Source: Gammaproteobacteria bacterium (GTDB taxonomy: Bacteria > Pseudomonadota > Gammaproteobacteria > Natronospirales > REEB76). Taken from it: DNA of 64,000 nt. Location of the stretch: assembly GCA_050739415.1 (NCBI GenBank), contig JBOIBD010000001.1:760-64759 (forward strand), written 5' to 3'. Below the pieces are notes generated by a model. That model was not told where the DNA came from. It was given only the letters and a program-made list of their open reading frames with translations, and ran no database searches. Position numbers and translations under genes: made by a program. Below, in pieces: positions 28,831-38,698 of the stretch. Position 1 is the first letter of the stretch. Every line of letters begins with the position of its first letter.

Positions 28831-30579
28831 ATGTCACATTCCTTCGCCACTCGGACGTTCATCTCCATCCTTTTACTCGCCAGCGGCGTCTGGGCTTTAT
28901 GGGGCTCATTCAATAGCTACGACCTGCCATTTTCCTTAGGTATTGTGGATGCCCGAACTGCGGTGGTGCATCCCAACCCGGGCTTGCCAATGCCACCCGG
29001 CATCCAGGCCGGTGACCGGATCGATCTGAAAGCACTGGATCCGTCGGCCCGCGCCGCTGTCGTCATCTACGACATGCAGGGCACCCTGCCAGCGGCGCAA
29101 ACCTACCCGTTCGTCGTTCGCCGGGGAGACACAAGCATCACCGTGCCGGTGACCACGATACGCTACGCTCTCAGCCAGCGTGCGTTCATTTCCTTTTGGA
29201 TCTTCTTGGGGAATACGTTGCTTGTCACAGTTCTGGGGCTGCTGGTCCTGTGGCGCGGTCGGGACCGGGCCGCAATCTATATGGCGGTATGGCTGATACT
29301 TACGATGCTTGGCTTCGCGTTGAATTACGGTTTCGGAACCGATGGCACGTTCGGCCTTTGGATGCAATCACTCGCCATCGGCGCTTATGGCTTCGGCCGC
29401 GTCGTTTTTTACCTCATGATCGAAACCCTTTTGGGCGCGGCCCTGACACCGCGCGCCCGGCTGTTCGCTCGCATCGGTTTTGCCCTGATCCTGGCTGTGG
29501 GTGTGACCACCATGCTGGGCGGACATCTCATCTATGTCATGAGCGGCTGGGCCGGGCTGATGCGTCCGGCATTTGGCATCCTGTTCACAGCCGCCTATCT
29601 AGTCCCGGCGCTTATGCTGCTCTTCGGTTATAGCCGCGCCGTGCAGATCCAAAAGCCACGGTTGCGATGGCTCCTGTTTAGCACCGCGGTGCTGCTGGTG
29701 AGCATATTCTTAAGCAACACGTCAGTGATGGACATCGTCACGACACTGGCCGTGCAGAGCACGTTCATCGGCATCGGTTTCTGCGGTTTTACCTACACGG
29801 TGCTGCGTCACCGGGTGGTGGACGTTTCCGTGGTGCTGGACCGCACCCTGGTATACGGCGCCACCACCGCGCTGGTGGTGGGCATCGTGGCTGCCATGAA
29901 CAGCGTGGCTTTGCGTGCGACACTCGGTGAGCACACCGGCCTGCTGCTGCAAGTCGTGATTCCTCTGGCCCTCGGTATCGTGCTGGGTAAGGTGCGCATC
30001 TACATGGACCGCGTTGTCGAGCGGGTGTTCTTCCGCAGGAAATATCTTGCGGAGAGCGCACTCAAGGCCTTCGCCCGCCAGGCGGGGCACATGGAAAGCG
30101 CTTCGAAATTGCTGGATGCTGCGGTGCGCGAGATCCAGCGGAACATGAATGCACCGGCGGTCGCCATCTATTCAGCGGAGAAACAGGGCTACAAACGGCT
30201 CCGGCAAACGGGTGCGGACGAGTTCCCGGAAGAATTGGATATCGACGACGCGGCGCTGGTGGCGCTGCGCACCGAACGCGCGGCGGTGGAGTTGCCGGAT
30301 GTGGGCAGCGCCATGGGTGACGATGGCTGCGTGTTCCCCATGATCGTGCTGGGTAACCTGCGCGGCGCCGTGGTATGCCTGAACCAGCCGAGCGTGCATT
30401 ACGCCATGGATGAGAAAATGTTATTGACACAGGTGGCCAGTGACGTGGGCGCTGCGCTGCGCATCCTGCGCGCGCGTGATAACGAAGCTATCGTCGCGGA
30501 ACTGGTGGAAGGCAAAGTCCCGACTCGTGAACTCCGCGAGCGGGCCCGTGCTGTGCATCTCGCCCGGGCGGGTGCGTAA
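28831..30579 (+). CDS. polytopic membrane sensor-like protein with C-terminal GAF-like domain, no recognisable output domain
   Basis: ORF 28780..30579 trimmed to ATG 28831 (GGAGA 6 nt upstream). One TM, a periplasmic segment of about 110 aa (GIQAGDRIDLKAL), a multi-TM core, then a cytoplasmic region of about 170 aa resembling GAF (LDAAVREIQRNMNAPAVAIY...LLTQVASDVGAALRI). Confidence 0.65.
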   Translation: MSHSFATRTFISILLLASGVWALWGSFNSYDLPFSLGIVDARTAVVHPNPGLPMPPGIQAGDRIDLKALDPSARAAVVIYDMQGTLPAAQTYPFVVRRGDTSITVPVTTIRYALSQRAFISFWIFLGNTLLVTVLGLLVLWRGRDRAAIYMAVWLILTMLGFALNYGFGTDGTFGLWMQSLAIGAYGFGRVVFYLMIETLLGAALTPRARLFARIGFALILAVGVTTMLGGHLIYVMSGWAGLMRPAFGILFTAAYLVPALMLLFGYSRAVQIQKPRLRWLLFSTAVLLVSIFLSNTSVMDIVTTLAVQSTFIGIGFCGFTYTVLRHRVVDVSVVLDRTLVYGATTALVVGIVAAMNSVALRATLGEHTGLLLQVVIPLALGIVLGKVRIYMDRVVERVFFRRKYLAESALKAFARQAGHMESASKLLDAAVREIQRNMNAPAVAIYSAEKQGYKRLRQTGADEFPEELDIDDAALVALRTERAAVELPDVGSAMGDDGCVFPMIVLGNLRGAVVCLNQPSVHYAMDEKMLLTQVASDVGAALRILRARDNEAIVAELVEGKVPTRELRERARAVHLARAGA

Positions 30580-30668
30580 GCTATCTGCCTCTTGATTAAG
30601 ACCAAAAGCTAAGGCCGTGGCCTGTTCCACATAAATTTGCACTAGACGACATATGATTCGGCGTGACG

Positions 30669-31280
30669 TCAGGTACGCGGCGTGATGTCCAGTTCGATCG
30701 TTGAATGAGCCGCGTCTTCCAGCCGGATGACGGCCTCCTGCTTGTTGCCTGTCAGGACTGTTGGAGAAGCAATCAGCTGGTAATCCTGCTTTTTATCGTA
30801 AGTATAGATGTTGGCCTTTATACGCACCTGCCCTCCCTTGGTAATTTCAGGCAGCAGGATCAATTTTAGTTGCTTGTCGATGCGCACCTCGCTGGTCTTG
30901 CCAGCTTCGTTTAGCAGGTGTACAGAGGCGAGCTGTGTCTTGTCCTTGAGCACCGTAACATCGAGCATCACAGGAGCTGCCGTCACATGTGAAACATATA
31001 GCAGAGAGAGGGCTGCCGCAGCAAACGCCCCCAGTCCAAACCGAATCGGCCAGCGCAGTAGCATCATCCGTCGTTTTACAGGTTCGACCAGCAAATGTTT
31101 AGGCGTGATATCGAATGCCGAAGACACGGCCTTTACAGATTCGTAGGAGCCGCTGCCGTAGGTCTCCATACGCTGCACGGTCCTCAGGCTGAGGTTGGCA
31201 ATTTCCGCCAGCTGCTGCTGGCTCCAGGCTCTGGATTGCCGTAGGTGAATGAGCTTACTGGTATCTATGTGCATGTCCAT
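30669..31280 (-). CDS. membrane-anchored XRE-family helix-turn-helix regulator
   Basis: ATG 31280 with GGAGGA upstream. N-terminal HTH_3 (LIHLRQSRAWSQQQLAEIANLSLRTVQRMETYG), one TM (FGLGAFAAAALSLLYVSHV), extracytoplasmic beta-rich domain of about 100 aa. Confidence 0.75.
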   Translation of the reverse strand: MDMHIDTSKLIHLRQSRAWSQQQLAEIANLSLRTVQRMETYGSGSYESVKAVSSAFDITPKHLLVEPVKRRMMLLRWPIRFGLGAFAAAALSLLYVSHVTAAPVMLDVTVLKDKTQLASVHLLNEAGKTSEVRIDKQLKLILLPEITKGGQVRIKANIYTYDKKQDYQLIASPTVLTGNKQEAVIRLEDAAHSTIELDITPRT

Positions 31281-31387
31281 CACGATTCCTCCCCGTAAAT
31301 GAGGTGATCATTCTGGGAGGAAAACCCTGGTTGTATACGTCAGTCTTGCGACATTCGCGTGCTATTTATACGCCAGACCCCCGAACA

Positions 31388-31597
31388 GCGCCATCGTTTG
31401 TCTGAACCGGCCAAGCACGCATTACGCTATGGATGAGAAAACGCTATTGACGCAAGTGGCTAGCGATGTGGGCGCTGCGTATCCTGCGTGCGCGTGACAA
31501 CGAAGCTATCGTCGCCGAACTGGTGGAGGGCAAGATCCCGACGCGTATACTCCGTGAGCGGGCTCGCACCCTGCATCTTGCCCGGGCGGGTGCGTGA
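31388..31597 (+). pseudogene. remnant of the 3' end of a paralogue of the GAF-domain gene
   Basis: Aligns to 30365-30579 at roughly 83-86% identity (hand count over 78 + 119 nt), including the stop region (gggtgcgtGAgc vs gggtgcgtAAgc). A 5-nt deletion near 31480 breaks the frame. No upstream continuation. Confidence 0.75.
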
Positions 31598-31783
31598 GCC
31601 TAAGTTTTATTATCTTACCTTGCTGTGCGTAAGGCCATTGAGCCATACTCGATTCGGGCGATTTTCTGCAATTTAGATATGAACGATAATTAAATAAGGT
31701 CTCTCAAGTTCAGGTCGATATATTCTCAACTACACTCAGGCGGAATATAAATAACTGCTTTCCTTGATGACAAGGAGAATAAA

Positions 31784-32212: not shown

Positions 32213-32289
32213 AATAAAGGGGTCAGAGCCTTTAAATTGCCCCAGACAGATGTTAATGGTCAACACTTAAGGGCTCCGACCCCTTTATT
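32213..32289. mobile_element. 77-bp MITE-like element (family 4; AATAAAGGGGTCRGAGCC termini)
   Basis: aataaaggggtcagagcctttaa ... ttaagggctccgacccctttatt; terminal inverted repeats match about 21/23. Confidence 0.6.
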
Positions 32290-32319
32290 CTTGATGAAAG
32301 AACCTGATGCCAGTCAACC

Positions 32320-33606
32320 TTACTCGCCGCGATAAGCTAGCACACTCGTTAATTGAGACTCACTAGCTCCGCTAGTATGTAGTGCCTTTCTAAGAATTTC
32401 TAACCCGACCTTTGGTGATCGTGGCACTACTCCAGATGAATAATATTTCTTTTCGAACGAATACCCATCTTCAGTCACTTTTTCTATGATTTGTATCGAT
32501 CCTGGAGATTGCTCATAGTCTTCCTTATACTTCCATGGTCCATTGGCTTTGACTTCAACCTCATCTGGAATTGCATCCAATACTGCGTCAATGAGACGAA
32601 AATTTAAATGAGGACAGAAGCGAAACCGAAAAAGGTTCTGTTCGAGTTCATGACGAATTCTTTTTTTGTCGAACGCGAAAATGACTTGCTTATTTAGAAC
32701 GCCAGCCTTGCGAAATTGTCCGTATGAGAACCAATTCCCCCATATTACCCAATCCATATTCGCTTGCTTGCAACCCCAAACGTTAAAACGCTTCTCGTCT
32801 ATTCCAAAGCAATATTCAACAGGGCGATACGCAGTGTTTCGCTGTTCACTGCACCATACGAAACCAAAAACGTCATCCCAATGCGATTCTTGTCCATCCA
32901 CCCATACCTTTCGATTCCGCATGCCTTTTATGTCTCCTACAAGCTTTGCGGCCTCCCCAATCTGTTCTCTCGGCCATGCCGCCAAATACCACGTTTTCTT
33001 TCCTCTAATACAAGTTGCGTTGATTGGTGCTCCCTGCGCCCTTTTTACAGCATCCGCAAACCCACTTGCGCTTGATTCAGAAAATTCAATAGCTACGCCC
33101 TTCACAGGTATCTTATACGTTATGAGGACCGCGGATTCTTGGTCAGATTTTGTAAGTGAACTGCCGCACGCTGGACAAAATTTTGCATCTTCAGATACAG
33201 AAGCAGCGCAACTTGGACAAGCTCGCATATTATGTGATGGAGCCATATTTGTCTTGACCTGCGCGATGATGATCTGAAATTGCTCCTTAGTGACTCCAGC
33301 TTTGCGAGCAAACTCAAGAATCACCAGCTCTTCTGCCTGATCTAACTTGCCGTCCATGAGAGACACGACAATCATATCCTCAAGATTGGAAATCCTAGTT
33401 GACAATAGACCAACGGGTGATGGCATGTATCCGGTAGTTTCTACAACGGTTTGGGCTTTGCTTAGCAAAGTTTTGGTTGCACCAATTCGCTTCTGGGTGT
33501 TGGTTATGGCCTGCATTTCATTTGGTGTGACTCGGCCATCCGCACGTGCCACAGCTAGCAGATTCGCGAGATACGCGATCTTATCTTCGTCATTCATCCT
33601 TCTCAA
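32320..33606 (-). CDS. TerB-like domain + zinc-ribbon + uncharacterised Trp-rich C-terminal domain protein
   Basis: 428 aa. N-terminal TerB/DjlA-N-like repeats (IAYLANLLAVARADGRVTPNEMQAI; IVVSLMDGKLDQAEELVILEFARKAG), CxxC-x9-CxxC ribbon (CPSCAASVSEDAKFCPACG), then about 280 aa with no motif I recognise (WDDVFGFVWCSEQRN, NVWGCKQANMDWVIWGNWF). AT-rich. Confidence 0.7.
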   Translation of the reverse strand: MRRMNDEDKIAYLANLLAVARADGRVTPNEMQAITNTQKRIGATKTLLSKAQTVVETTGYMPSPVGLLSTRISNLEDMIVVSLMDGKLDQAEELVILEFARKAGVTKEQFQIIIAQVKTNMAPSHNMRACPSCAASVSEDAKFCPACGSSLTKSDQESAVLITYKIPVKGVAIEFSESSASGFADAVKRAQGAPINATCIRGKKTWYLAAWPREQIGEAAKLVGDIKGMRNRKVWVDGQESHWDDVFGFVWCSEQRNTAYRPVEYCFGIDEKRFNVWGCKQANMDWVIWGNWFSYGQFRKAGVLNKQVIFAFDKKRIRHELEQNLFRFRFCPHLNFRLIDAVLDAIPDEVEVKANGPWKYKEDYEQSPGSIQIIEKVTEDGYSFEKKYYSSGVVPRSPKVGLEILRKALHTSGASESQLTSVLAYRGE

Positions 33607-33756
33607 TTCCTGATGTTGTCACGCTCAAAATTGCGCCGAGTCAGTCGGAGAAGTTCAGAAAAAATTAATGCATACAATTTAATGCGATAAGTCATAAATG
33701 CCGGAATACGGTTTGCTATTATGCATGATTGCTATTCCCGCCAGTCTGCGACACGG

Positions 33757-34843: not shown

Positions 34844-34860
34844 ACATTGAGCTACAATGT
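34844..34860. promoter_or_regulatory. candidate antitoxin operator (6-5-6 palindrome)
   Basis: ACATTG-agcta-CAATGT, perfect inverted repeat 26 nt upstream of the dinJ-like ATG. Confidence 0.4.
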
Positions 34861-34885
34861 AGCCCAACCTATGGAGAAAAACCTC

Positions 34886-35149
34886 ATGAAAGCCAATACC
34901 GTCGTCCGCGCCAGAATCGATGCCGAGACCAAGGAAGAAGCGGCCGTGGTGCTTGAAGCCATGGGCCTCACCGTGTCGGATGCCTTCCGCCTCATGCTCA
35001 CCCGCATTGTTCACGAGAAGGCTCTGCCTTTCGAGCCGTTGGTTCCCAATACCAAAACGATTGCGGCGATGAAAGAAGCCCGCCACGGGAAACTGCGCAC
35101 CGCCAAAAGCGTGAAATCCCTGATGGCGAATCTCGATGCGGACGATTGA
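34886..35149 (+). CDS. dinJ: type II antitoxin, RelB/DinJ family
   Basis: ORF 34847..35149 (TTG) trimmed to ATG 34886 (GGAG 9 nt upstream): MKANTVVRARIDAETKEEAAVVLEAMGLTVSDAFRLMLTRIVHEKALPFEP, collinear with E. coli DinJ. Overlaps the toxin gene by 14 nt. Confidence 0.88.
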   Translation: MKANTVVRARIDAETKEEAAVVLEAMGLTVSDAFRLMLTRIVHEKALPFEPLVPNTKTIAAMKEARHGKLRTAKSVKSLMANLDADD

Positions 35150-35417
35150 GTATACCCGGCAATTCAAACGCGACTTCAAACGTGAATCTTGGGGCCCACA
35201 TCGGAATACGTTTGAAACCGTATTCCCACGATTGTTTGACACCCTCTCCCGCGATCAGCCCCTGCCTGCCAAGTACCGAGATCACCCGTTAACGGGCGAA
35301 TGGAAGGATTTTCGTGACTGCCATATCCGTCCAGATTTGGTCTTGATCTACCGTAAACAAGGAGACAGTGTGTTGCAGTTGGTCCGCCTCGGCTCACACA
35401 GCGAACTCAGTCTGTAA
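35136..35417 (+). CDS. yafQ: type II toxin, YafQ family mRNA interferase
   Basis: 93 aa; IEYTRQFKRDFKR ... PLPAKYRDHPLTGEWKDFRDCHIRPDLVLIYR matches the YafQ signature (DHPL-G-WK-RD-H-PD-LIY). Confidence 0.88.
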   Translation: MRTIEYTRQFKRDFKRESWGPHRNTFETVFPRLFDTLSRDQPLPAKYRDHPLTGEWKDFRDCHIRPDLVLIYRKQGDSVLQLVRLGSHSELSL

Positions 35418-35446: not shown

Positions 35447-37312
<1,866 letters not shown>

Positions 37313-37352
37313 TCATGGACCGAGCGCAGGCAAGAATGGGCGGCGGGGAGAC

Positions 37353-37582
37353 CGTCGGAGCATTCCCTACGCCGGTGTTGACCAGGTTCAGGTTCCAAGG
37401 GTTCCAACCAACCTGCAAAACCTACTGCGCTTGCCATGACGGCGTTGCTCGCACGCTCAAAATCCTCATGTACTAGCGTGTACACTCCGGTTTTTCGCAT
37501 GCTCGCGCCTTGTCCTGCCTGCGCTCGCTACGGTTTTGCTGGCGGTTGTATCTCAGCCCTTTCGGGCACCCCCAGCTCGACG
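37353..37582 (-). promoter_or_regulatory. TPP (THI-box) riboswitch in the thiC leader, with a large internal insertion
   Basis: Minus-strand RNA: CGUCGAGC-UGGGGUGCCCGAAAGGGCUGAGA...(about 148 nt)...ACCCUUGGAACCUGAACCUGGUCAACACCGGCGUAGGGAAUGCUCCGACG. Conserved GGGGUGC, CUGAGA, ACCUGA and GCGUAGGGAA blocks and a P1 pairing are all present. TATAGT -10-like hexamer at 37589-37594. Confidence 0.85.
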
Positions 37583-37720
37583 GGTGTAACTATAGCAAAA
37601 GATACAGACTAAGGTTTGATGCTTCGGTGCGTGCATTCATACCAATGCTCCTGTCTGCAGGCAGGAGAGGGTCAAAGCGCTGGGAATAAATCAGGTATCG
37701 ACGGTGTATGACCGGACGGA

Positions 37721-38698
37721 TTACAGCGATCCAGATGCCAAAGCCGCCTTGGCTTGCTTGTAATCCGGATCGAGGTCGAGCGCGGCAACATACTGAGCTT
37801 TCTCGCTGATCTTGTCGCCGGCGATGGCATACAACATGCCAAGCTGATAATGCGCCTGTTTGTAGGTGGGTGTCCCAGGCAGCCAGTCATGCGGCAACGT
37901 CAGGAATTTCTGCAAGTCCTGAATGCCTTGCTGCACTTGAATCTTGCCAAGTGCTGCCGCCTGACCGACACCGTAGTAGTTGGCGCTATTTGTGGGCTTC
38001 TTGGTAATGCCATCATTGAATGCCGCAATCGCATCGCTATAGCGATTCTGACCCACGAGGAACACACCCAACCAATAATCACTGTCTCCGGACTTGTCGA
38101 GATTAGCAGCCTTGCGCAAGTATGTTTCAGTTTTCTGGTTGTTCTTGTCTTCCTGCGCCCGGGTCGCGCGTACCACCGCCGCTTGCACTGGATCAAGCTT
38201 GTCCAGGGCGGCAATCTGCTCATCGGCTTTGTTGATACTGCCGCCGGCGATACCCGGCGCCAGAATGTAATACTTGGCAAGACCGGCGCGTGCCTGGGCA
38301 TTATCGGGGTCGAGTTGCACAGCCTGCTGAAACGCATCACGAACCTTGTATGCGATACCTAGCTGGCTGAAGATGCTCACATCGTGAACGTACTGTCCGT
38401 AAGCGACGCCTAGCAACATCTGGTAGGTCGCATCCTGGGGCGCGAGCGCAATCGCCTTGTGCGCCCAATCAACACCGGCTTTGTTCTGCCCGCGCGCCAG
38501 GCTGACCGTCGCCATACCCGCCGCCGCTGCGGCGTCGTTTGGGTCGTTTTGCAAACCGGTCCGGAAATACGCCTGCGCGCCGGCGTAATTTTCCATTTCC
38601 AGCATCTGCATACCGGGGCCATCAAGTGCCTTCGCGTGTGCAGAGAAAGCCAAGGCCATTGCCAAACACGTTAAACCTGCAACTGCAAAAGATTTCAT
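37721..38698 (-). CDS. secreted TPR-repeat protein (paralogue 1)
   Basis: ORF 37721..38764(-) trimmed to ATG 38698 (GGAGAG upstream): MKSFAVAGLTCLAMALAFSAHA signal peptide, then TPR-like repeats. Shares GMQMLEMENYAGAQAYF and many blocks with 39156-40127. Confidence 0.8.
   Translation of the reverse strand: MKSFAVAGLTCLAMALAFSAHAKALDGPGMQMLEMENYAGAQAYFRTGLQNDPNDAAAAAGMATVSLARGQNKAGVDWAHKAIALAPQDATYQMLLGVAYGQYVHDVSIFSQLGIAYKVRDAFQQAVQLDPDNAQARAGLAKYYILAPGIAGGSINKADEQIAALDKLDPVQAAVVRATRAQEDKNNQKTETYLRKAANLDKSGDSDYWLGVFLVGQNRYSDAIAAFNDGITKKPTNSANYYGVGQAAALGKIQVQQGIQDLQKFLTLPHDWLPGTPTYKQAHYQLGMLYAIAGDKISEKAQYVAALDLDPDYKQAKAALASGSL

What the first reader, a model, noticed from the sequence alone, without database searches (positions are those of the whole stretch)
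32320..33606. Orphan TerB + zinc-ribbon protein with an unrecognisable Trp-rich C-terminal domain of about 280 aa: candidate single-gene stress or defence factor
The N-terminus has two TerB/DjlA-N-like helical repeats, a module that comparative-genomic work links to membrane-proximal sensing in tellurite-resistance and conflict systems. It is followed by a CxxC-x9-CxxC ribbon. The rest (ITYKIPVKG...WDDVFGFVWCSEQRN...NVWGCKQANMDWVIWGNWFSYGQF...FRFRFCPHLNF...) matches nothing I can name. The gene is AT-rich, is flanked by a MITE on its 3' side, stands alone with its own 150-bp upstream region, and lies 1.3 kb from a toxin-antitoxin pair. Sensor plus unknown effector in an islet is the typical shape of newly described anti-phage or abortive-infection proteins.
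Basis: partly seen in the sequence, partly recalled or inferred. Interest (0 to 1): 0.6.

Follow-up and report, generated by a model that had tools for sequence, protein, structure and literature searches.

The report
Mobile TerB–zinc-ribbon protein, candidate phage-exclusion gene
This is a real, horizontally acquired single gene that joins a TerB domain and a zinc ribbon to a conserved four-cysteine domain with no known relative; its kin sit in prophage immunity regions, transposon- and toxin-antitoxin-rich islets and some defence islands, so it is a reasonable but untested candidate for a new phage-exclusion or defence protein.

Summary
The ORF is real: 32320-33597, minus strand, 425 aa from the ATG. 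TerB (aa 10-111) and a CxxC-x10-CxxC zinc ribbon pass Pfam cut-offs. Residues ~160-425 match nothing in Pfam, NCBIfam, PADLOC, PDB sequences, or by Foldseek in PDB/BFVD. A confident AlphaFold model splits this region into a ferredoxin/ACT-like subdomain and an unmatched alpha/beta domain with four cysteines invariant in 141-143 divergent representatives. The core defines a rare family (603 clusters at 50% identity). TerB is an accessory: 46 of 100 complete representatives have it, 9 have a C-terminal membrane anchor instead, never both, and 45 have neither. One-off fusions are to TerD and to a DEDD exonuclease. The gene is foreign (GC3 40% against 74% for thiC) and has no conserved neighbour at 78 loci. 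Close relatives lie in temperate-phage DNA, one after a repressor-like gene in a Mu-like phage; others lie in transposon/TA islets, inside a Wadjet operon, or beside Thoeris. The "MITE" is a single-copy terminator-like hairpin. The toxin-antitoxin pair is not linked. The best reading is a membrane-proximal exclusion or defence factor. The evidence is circumstantial.

The parts
32320..33597 (-). CDS of 425 aa (stop codon included).
   Evidence: ORF list. The identical 425-aa protein P0001 and 207 homologues align from this Met. GC 0.45, GC3 0.405.
33265..33570 (-). TerB domain (aa 10-111): a helical bundle with two 'DG...E' repeats.
   Evidence: PF05099, E = 2.2e-9, 38 bits against a cut-off of 24.4. 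The top Foldseek hits are the TerB-like structures 2ou3 and 2h5n. pLDDT is about 85-94.
33145..33219 (-). Zinc ribbon (aa 127-151): C127-x2-C130-x10-C141-x2-C144.
   Evidence: PF13248 and PF13240 above cut-off. All four Cys are invariant in 75 homologues. Spacing.
32884..33105 (-). Ferredoxin/ACT-like beta-alpha-beta-beta-alpha-beta subdomain (aa ~165-238). It carries the conserved IEFxES and KKxWY strands.
   Evidence: AF2 secondary structure: E168-173, H180-188, E192-198, E201-208, H210-222, E229-238. There are weak, non-significant Foldseek hits to the PHGDH ACT domain (2p9e, prob 0.93), the aspartate-kinase ACT domain and the NikR C-terminal domain.
32323..32880 (-). Cys4/Trp-rich alpha/beta domain (aa 240-425) with no known homologue. 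Invariant C249, C263, C276 and C328; motifs YCFG, NxWGC, FDKxRIRHE and CP; W355.
   Evidence: No hit in Pfam, NCBIfam, PADLOC or PDB sequences. No Foldseek hit at E <= 0.001 in PDB or BFVD. The four Cys are 100% conserved in 141-143 representatives.
32213..32289 (.).
   Evidence: 23-nt arms, 91% complementary. RNA fold -44.8 kcal/mol, z = -3.6, stem flanked by AAUAAA and UUUAUU. Single copy in the window and in 92 loci apart from the identical contigs. Homology to L009 ends at 32296.
33598..33756 (-). 159-bp AT-rich upstream intergenic region; presumed own promoter. No site has been validated.
   Evidence: Sequence and gap length. The consensus scan found no match in the 159-bp upstream gap; the nearest (33606-33578) overlaps the start codon.

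Best explanation
What is shown:
- A horizontally acquired, stand-alone gene encodes a four-module cytoplasmic protein: an N-terminal TerB helical bundle, a long helix, a 4-Cys zinc ribbon, a ferredoxin/ACT-like subdomain, and an alpha/beta domain built around four invariant cysteines (a probable structural metal site).
- The last two modules form a new, rare domain family, usually preceded by a zinc ribbon.
- TerB is an exchangeable N-terminal accessory. A C-terminal transmembrane anchor occurs in its place in another branch, and the two never co-occur.

What is inferred:
- The protein is a lysogen- or island-borne conflict factor, most likely a single-protein superinfection-exclusion or anti-phage defence protein.
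- TerB (or the TM anchor) holds the core at the cytoplasmic face of the inner membrane.
- There the core binds an incoming phage component or a nucleic-acid or nucleotide ligand and blocks an early infection step.
- How the block is executed is unknown. No catalytic signature is evident.
For: Anatomy:
- Domain calls.
- Confident AF2 model: pLDDT 89.6 for the full chain and 81.5 for the C-terminus alone.
- Four Cys are 100% conserved; H316 is conserved in only 66% and D310/K311/N272 in about 90%.

Modularity:
- Among 100 complete representatives: TerB only 46, TM anchor only 9, neither 45, both 0.
- Singleton fusions to TerD, to RNase_T plus a TM anchor, to HTH_26 and to TPR.

Foreign and mobile:
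- GC3 0.405 against 0.743 for thiC.
- The gene's GC is below its flanks in 67 of 71 loci.
- It is 60-62% identical to copies in Planctomycetes, Betaproteobacteria and Bacteroidetes genomes, but only 48% identical to copies in other Gammaproteobacteria.
- 81 confirmed hits in 185,579 species genomes.
- Several copies are pseudogenised.
- The region differs from that of a close relative.

Conflict context:
- TerB-type copies occur next to a terminase gene and, in a Mu-like phage, directly after a repressor-like gene.
- Neighbours on viral contigs include cI-like repressors, Ant, an excisionase and a RexA-like exclusion protein.
- P0308 lies between an HTH pair and an M78 peptidase plus a serine recombinase.
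- Other copies sit inside a Wadjet operon with MazEF, beside Thoeris and a toxSAS-type gene, or among transposases and PIN/VapB pairs.
- One copy is on a Leptospira plasmid amid IS elements.

Literature:
- TerB domains occur in the validated systems Shango, Bunzi and Dionysus, and were proposed there to act in membrane surveillance.
Against: - There is no experiment of any kind.
- No neighbour or defence family recurs.
- Several copies sit among ordinary genes (Thalassoglobus; Shewanella fidelis).
- No control-based enrichment statistic was computed.
- Viral contigs were found by searching a viral collection, so that sample is biased.
- There is no hit among 50,697 catalogued phage genomes.
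- About 45% of the family lacks any membrane-targeting module, so a membrane-proximal mechanism cannot be general.
- No effector-like catalytic motif was found.
- TerB membrane association is taken from the literature, not tested here.
Confidence: 0.45

Rival explanations
1. It is a metal, metalloid or redox stress factor. TerB and TerD are Ter-system ligand- or metal-binding modules. The eight conserved cysteines (ribbon plus Cys4 site) would form redox- or metal-sensitive sites that report on or buffer chemical stress at the membrane.
For: TerB is above the Pfam cut-off. One relative has TerD fused in its place (P0186). Four Cys are invariant, on top of the 4-Cys ribbon. The ferredoxin-like subdomain weakly resembles metal- or ligand-binding ACT and NikR domains. 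A review summarises TerB and TerD as ligand-binding sensors of the Ter system. Many hosts come from sulfidic or sediment settings.
Against: No ter genes (terC, terD, telA, terZ) and no metal-resistance genes recur nearby. The extreme rarity, the cross-phylum transfer and the placement in prophage immunity regions are not expected of a stress-homeostasis gene. Half of the family has neither TerB nor TerD.
Confidence: 0.2
2. It is a ligand-regulated nucleic-acid-binding regulator. The zinc ribbon plus an RRM/ACT-like fold and the Trp/Arg-rich domain would bind DNA or RNA to control expression of unlinked targets or of the carrying mobile element.
For: Zinc ribbon and ferredoxin-like fold. Rare fusions to HTH_26, a DprA winged helix and an RNase_T exonuclease. 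Location next to phage repressors.
Against: There is no recognisable DNA-binding motif in the core. Tethering by TerB or a TM anchor is odd for a transcription factor. No conserved target gene lies nearby.
Confidence: 0.12
3. It is selfish cargo or a mobile-element maintenance gene (an addiction-like or anti-defence function that benefits the element rather than the host).
For: Foreign composition, patchy spread and pseudogenised copies. Frequent transposase, TA and prophage surroundings.
Against: It is not tied to any one element type, since the transposase and integrase families differ at every locus. It is absent from catalogued, mostly lytic, phages. It has no partner antitoxin-like gene.
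Confidence: 0.1

Closest known systems
TerB-domain proteins of validated multi-gene defence systems: SngA (Shango), BnzA (Bunzi), DinB (Dionysus)
   Same: All contain a TerB domain. All are found in accessory or defence regions. In those papers TerB is proposed to act in membrane surveillance.
   Different: Those are two- or three-gene systems with helicase/ATPase, TM or pore-forming partners. This is a single gene with no conserved partner. PADLOC gives only a weak TerB-region hit to candidate PDC-S48. Its C-terminal module is unrelated to anything in those systems.
TerB of the terZABCDE tellurite-resistance operon, and TerB-like structures 2ou3 and 2h5n
   Same: The N-terminal 110 aa match the Pfam TerB model, and these structures are the top Foldseek hits.
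   Different: There is no ter operon or Ter partner genes here or at 78 other loci. TerB makes up only a quarter of this protein.
Prophage immunity-region exclusion genes (lambda cI-rexAB, P22 sieA/sieB)
   Same: Genomic position: relatives lie directly beside repressor-like genes in temperate or Mu-like phages, and one lies near a RexA-like gene. They are often membrane-associated.
   Different: No sequence or fold similarity was detected (no hit in INPHARED or BFVD). The window copy itself is not in a prophage.
ACT/RAM-type ferredoxin-like small-ligand-binding domains (PHGDH, aspartate kinase, NikR C-terminal domain)
   Same: The predicted beta-alpha-beta-beta-alpha-beta topology of aa ~165-238, and the best (weak) structural matches.
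   Different: All E-values are >= 0.03, there is no sequence similarity, and no ligand-binding residues can be matched. This is a generic fold resemblance only.

Membership tests
TerB domain (Pfam PF05099) | Score above the Pfam gathering threshold over most of the model | tested here: met
   38 bits against a cut-off of 24.4; model positions 2-114 of 118; aa 10-111.
TerB domain (Pfam PF05099) | Helical-bundle fold like solved TerB-like proteins | tested here: met
   The top Foldseek PDB hits are 2ou3 and 2h5n (prob 1.00, target-normalised TM 0.47-0.62), although E is only 0.02-0.06.
Zinc ribbon (PF13240/PF13248) | CxxC...CxxC with an HMM score above cut-off and conserved cysteines | tested here: met
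   28.8 and 28.0 bits against cut-offs of 27 and 25. C127, C130, C141 and C144 are invariant in 75 homologues.
Ter (tellurite-resistance) gene system | Genomic association with terC, terD, terZ, telA or the biosynthetic Ter genes | tested here: not met
   None among the window neighbours. No recurrent neighbour at 78 loci. None in the Pfam census of +/-1 neighbours. The only link is one TerD-core fusion protein.
Shango / Bunzi / Dionysus defence systems | Match to the system's HMMs and presence of the partner genes (helicase/ATPase, TM or pore-forming proteins) | tested here: not met
   PADLOC gives only PDC-S48, E = 1.4e-4, over aa 4-49. There are no conserved partners. Dionysus post-dates PADLOC 2.0 and was compared only by its published description.
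Defence-island gene (guilt by association) | Statistically enriched proximity to known defence genes compared with background | tested here: inconclusive
   10 of 12 annotated non-viral-search contexts contain TA, transposase, prophage or defence genes. Single strong PADLOC hits occur among the +/-1 neighbours. No control set or statistic was computed, and many neighbours are housekeeping genes.
Prophage superinfection-exclusion / moron genes | Location in the lysogeny-control region of temperate phages | tested here: met
   Met for relatives: L099 (after a repressor-like HTH gene in a Mu-like phage), L094/L095, L100-L105. Not met for the window copy, which is chromosomal with no phage genes nearby.
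Prophage superinfection-exclusion / moron genes | Demonstrated exclusion phenotype | not testable with these tools
   Needs phage challenge of an expressing strain.
MITE / REPIN | Multiple dispersed copies with terminal inverted repeats (and target-site duplication) | tested here: not met
   Only one copy in 64 kb, with chance expectation 1.3 for the arm motif. It is absent from all other loci, including the 92%-identical relative L009. Whole-genome copy number was not testable.
ACT/RAM ligand-binding fold | beta-alpha-beta-beta-alpha-beta topology with a significant structural match | tested here: inconclusive
   The topology is present in the model. The best matches have E 0.12-0.4 and prob up to 0.93 over about 80 residues.

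The most novel reading that the evidence does not exclude
The zinc-ribbon + ferredoxin-like + Cys4 module is a previously undescribed fold family that by itself forms a single-protein superinfection-exclusion or anti-phage immunity device. It would be delivered to the inner membrane by interchangeable tethers (TerB, TerD or a TM helix) and spread by temperate phages and transposon-rich islets across more than 15 bacterial phyla.
Probability: 0.3. Interest if true: 0.75.

Novelty: new variant of a known kind. Interest (0 to 1): 0.55.

Why it matters
If it is confirmed, this would add a compact single-gene immunity or exclusion protein built on a domain with no known structural or sequence relative. 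It would also give a second, simpler handle on what TerB domains do in phage defence, which the Shango, Bunzi and Dionysus papers leave open. The natural TerB-to-TM-anchor swap is a ready-made test of the 'membrane tether' idea. Cultured carriers (Shewanella fidelis, Microbulbifer rhizosphaerae, Thiocapsa roseopersicina, Denitromonas halophila, Leptospira interrogans plasmids) make the hypothesis testable. If it turns out to be a stress or regulatory protein instead, it still defines a new tetra-Cys domain family that deserves a Pfam entry.

Tried and rejected
- Sequence homology for the C-terminus. I tried Pfam, NCBIfam and PADLOC on the full protein, Pfam at E <= 5 on 44 C-terminal fragments (no family hit more than 2 members), and phmmer and profile searches against PDB sequences. 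Nothing was found.
- Fold homology. I ran Foldseek with the full model against PDB and BFVD, and with a C-terminus-only model against PDB. No hit reached E <= 0.001. The I-OnuI/LAGLIDADG hits (E 0.03, prob 0.12, rmsd about 20 A) were rejected as spurious.
- Conserved operon partner. It was rejected by all-vs-all clustering of 525 neighbours.
- Link to the TA pair. It was rejected because the pair is absent in L009.
- MITE. It was rejected as unsupported.
- A regulatory RNA near the gene. Rfam found nothing at the gathering threshold.
- A second copy or another TerB gene in the window. None was found.
- The Ter-system comparative-genomics paper (Anantharaman et al. 2012) could not be read, because it is not held. 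Statements about it come second-hand.
The tblastn search against 50,697 phage genomes (no hit) is the only proxy.
Full report
**1. The observation**

An uninterrupted ORF lies at 32320-33606 on the minus strand. A database protein identical over 425 aa (P0001, from a Gammaproteobacteria MAG) starts at the ATG at 33597, and 207 homologues align from that Met. I therefore take 32320-33597 as the CDS. The window is contig CCZDDD010000155.1 of MAG GCA_973743185.1.

- Pfam places TerB at aa 10-111 (38 bits against a cut-off of 24.4) and a zinc ribbon at aa 127-151. NCBIfam adds a weak DjlA hit.
- The ribbon is C127-x2-C130-x10-C141-x2-C144. The spacing is x10, not x9.
- Residues ~160-425 hit nothing in Pfam, NCBIfam, PADLOC or PDB sequences, whether as a single sequence or as a profile.
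- This region holds all 10 Trp of the protein, 3.7% of its residues.
- The gene is compositionally foreign: GC 0.45 against 0.56 in the flanks, and GC3 0.405 against 0.743 for the nearby thiC.

**2. The surroundings in the window**

The neighbours are:
- RibD_C;
- a 599-aa membrane protein with a weak GAF hit;
- an HTH_3 protein;
- a 142-aa membrane ORF convergent with the target;
- the target itself;
- DUF4440;
- Glyoxalase_6;
- a RelB/YafQ pair, 1.25 kb from the target;
- ThiC.

A relative MAG (L009) carries a 95% identical protein. ThiC, the glyoxalase gene and the DUF4440-plus-target block are conserved there at 88-92% nucleotide identity. The other segments differ:
- In place of the TA pair, L009 has an IS200-like Y1 transposase gene.
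- A GNAT gene is inserted.
- The 3.5 kb downstream of the target is replaced by 6.1 kb of unrelated DNA.

So the gene lies in a variable stretch, and the TA pair is not linked to it.

The '3' MITE' is an inverted repeat at 32213-32289. It occurs once in the window, and among 92 loci only in the identical contigs. It folds into a 19-bp G+C-rich stem (-44.8 kcal/mol, z = -3.6) flanked by AAUAAA and UUUAUU, and it sits between convergent genes. A bidirectional intrinsic terminator is the simplest reading. Homology with L009 ends at 32296, next to the hairpin.

**3. Structure**

An AlphaFold2 model built from 75 homologues is confident (mean pLDDT 89.6). It has five parts:
- a TerB helical bundle;
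- a long helix (aa 104-123);
- the ribbon;
- a beta-alpha-beta-beta-alpha-beta subdomain (aa ~165-238);
- an alpha/beta domain (aa 240-425).

Foldseek against PDB returns only TerB-like structures (2ou3, 2h5n) and weak ACT-like matches. It returns nothing from BFVD. A C-terminus-only model (pLDDT 81.5) again gives no hit at E <= 0.001. The consistent weak matches are ferredoxin/ACT-type domains: the PHGDH ACT domain (prob 0.93 over about 80 aa), the aspartate-kinase regulatory subunit, and the NikR C-terminal domain. The aa 240-425 domain remains unmatched.

**4. The family and its modularity**

An exhaustive profile search with the C-terminal region finds 603 clusters at 50% identity with E <= 1e-3, of which 361 have E <= 1e-10. 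Among 100 complete representatives:
- 46 have TerB;
- 9 have a C-terminal TM anchor;
- 45 have neither (one or two zinc ribbons plus the core, or the bare core);
- none has both TerB and a TM anchor.

Rare fusions exist: TerD + core (P0186), RNase_T/DEDD exonuclease + core + TM (P0308), HTH_26 + two ribbons + core (P0240), TPR + core (P0230), a tandem core (P0252), DprA_WH and GYF_2.

Conservation across 141-143 representatives:

| Residues | Conservation |
|---|---|
| C249, C263, C276, C328 | 100% |
| G293, P329, P344, W355 | 99% |
| N272, D310, K311 | about 90% |
| H316 | 66% |

This pattern indicates a tetra-Cys metal site, most likely structural, rather than a strictly conserved catalytic centre. 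The unit present in every member is the C-terminal core (ferredoxin-like subdomain plus Cys4 domain). It is usually preceded by a zinc ribbon, though a few members (P0186, P0252, L100/L101) lack one. TerB, TerD and the TM helix are exchangeable accessories. The mutual exclusivity of TerB and the TM anchor is consistent with TerB acting as a membrane tether. That step is inferred. The amphitropic, membrane-associated nature of TerB comes from the literature as cited.

**5. Mobility**

- The genome scan confirmed 81 copies in one-genome-per-species representatives of 185,579 species. They include Proteobacteria, Planctomycetes, Verrucomicrobia, Ignavibacteria, Acidobacteria, Nitrospirae, Firmicutes, Spirochaetes and others.
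- The window protein is 60-62% identical to copies in Thalassoglobus (Planctomycetes), Denitromonas (Betaproteobacteria) and a Paludibacter MAG. It is only about 48% identical to copies in the Gammaproteobacteria Thiocapsa and Methylotuvimicrobium.
- The gene's GC is below that of its flanks in 67 of 71 loci, with a median difference of -6.4 points.
- Several copies are interrupted or truncated: L011, L042, L056, L072, L073 and L077.

**6. Neighbourhoods**

- No neighbour family recurs. Among 525 ORFs within +/-4 genes at 78 loci, the largest cross-locus cluster spans 3 loci.
- The +/-1 neighbours are heterogeneous, with many housekeeping genes.
- PADLOC on the same set gives isolated strong hits and nothing recurrent: a DRT reverse transcriptase, a type II REase and MTase, a ThsB TIR protein, an OLD/GajA ATPase and PD-Lambda-5_B.

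Contexts with Pfam or record annotation:
- Thalassoglobus: nothing notable.
- Denitromonas: beside Baseplate_J/DUF6519 tail-like genes.
- Methylotuvimicrobium: between the Wadjet jetABC and jetD genes, together with MazEF, Uma2 and a Y1 transposase gene.
- Electrothrix: near smpB and a Gp49/HTH pair.
- Two MAGs: ringed by transposases, one also with two PIN genes and a VapB antitoxin gene.
- One MAG: next to an integrase fragment.
- Leptospira interrogans plasmids: amid IS5, IS481 and Rpn genes and a helicase-caspase pair.
- Shewanella fidelis: ordinary genes.
- Microbulbifer: an island with Thoeris, a RelA_SpoT gene and a Tse2-like toxin gene.

**7. Phage links**

There is no hit in 50,697 catalogued phage genomes. 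Eleven IMG/VR contigs carry relatives.
- The TerB-type copies lie in real phage DNA. In L097 the gene is about 0.8 kb from a large-terminase homologue.
- In L099 it lies in a Mu/D3112-like element, 3.4 kb from a transposase A homologue. It directly follows a co-oriented ORF with a repressor-like HTH.
- For seven viral contigs, the +/-6 neighbours are dominated by cI-like repressors, Ant, an excisionase, Mu Gam and a transposase. They also include one RexA-like exclusion protein, a terminase and a portal.
- P0308 lies between an HTH_3 pair and an M78 peptidase plus a large serine recombinase.

Repressor-adjacent, lysogen-expressed positions are where exclusion genes such as lambda rexAB sit. 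That last point is established knowledge and was not tested here.

**8. Interpretation**

- Shown: the anatomy, the new core family, the accessory status of TerB, the horizontal mobility, the lack of a partner gene, and the recurrent but not universal placement in prophage immunity regions, mobile islets and some defence islands.
- Inferred: a conflict function, most likely superinfection exclusion or defence exerted near the inner membrane.

The exonuclease fusion hints that nucleic acid is the ligand or target. The main rival is a Ter-type chemical-stress role (TerB/TerD fusions, eight cysteines). Against it are the absence of Ter or metal genes nearby and the phage contexts. Regulatory and selfish-element readings are less likely.

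The evidence has these limits:
- There was no control-based enrichment test.
- The viral sample is biased, because it came from searching a viral collection.
- I had no access to the model coordinates.
- I could not use AlphaFold DB or HHpred.

**9. Novelty**

Public records name every member only 'zinc ribbon domain-containing protein' or 'hypothetical'. No paper in the library describes the architecture. Known TerB defence systems (Shango, Bunzi, Dionysus) are multi-gene and share only the TerB domain. I rate it as a new variant of a known kind (TerB-associated conflict or stress proteins) that carries a domain family with no detectable relative.

Noticed in passing
window 30400-30581 and 31423-31599: The last ~180 bp of the 599-aa membrane/GAF gene recur 1.02 kb downstream at 86% identity. 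The two copies bracket the divergently oriented HTH_3 gene (30669-31283). This looks like the scar of an insertion or recombination that supplied a replacement 3' end.
   Followed up: no
window 34847-35417; L009 7801-8328: The RelB/YafQ toxin-antitoxin pair in the window occupies the position where the 88-92% identical relative L009 has an IS200-like Y1 transposase gene. The thiC-to-glyoxalase gap is therefore a swap site.
   Followed up: partly
window 37304-38500: No TPP riboswitch, and no other Rfam family, reaches the gathering score upstream of thiC (35447-37303, minus strand). This is unusual for a thiC gene.
   Followed up: no
L007 1-11752 (Methylotuvimicrobium sp. KM2, CP150634.1): A ~7-kb block lies between the jetABC and jetD genes of a Wadjet system. 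It holds Uma2, MazEF, a Y1 transposase gene, a T2SSG-like gene, the TerB-ribbon-core gene and an unknown ORF.
   Followed up: partly
L011 10001-11278 (Amphritea atlantica); also L042, L056, L072, L073, L077: Several genomic copies of the gene carry an internal stop or are split or truncated. This suggests recurrent decay after transfer.
   Followed up: partly
P0252 (549 aa): This protein has a tandem duplication of the core domain and no zinc ribbon. Both copies keep the four Cys but have lost the His of the FDKxRIRHE motif.
   Followed up: partly
L108 9001-18961 (Microbulbifer rhizosphaerae): A dense defence island lies downstream of the TM-type homologue. It contains a Tse2-like ADP-ribosyltransferase gene, an HTH_3 gene, a RelA_SpoT small alarmone synthetase gene, and a Thoeris ThsA (SIR2/STALD) gene with two ThsB-like TIR genes.
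   Followed up: no
L089 10771-13954 (Leptospira interrogans plasmid pLiSL41): A DEAD/DEAH helicase gene lies next to a caspase-family protease gene, 1.5 kb from the homologue. It may be an uncharacterised defence pair on a plasmid rich in IS elements.
   Followed up: no
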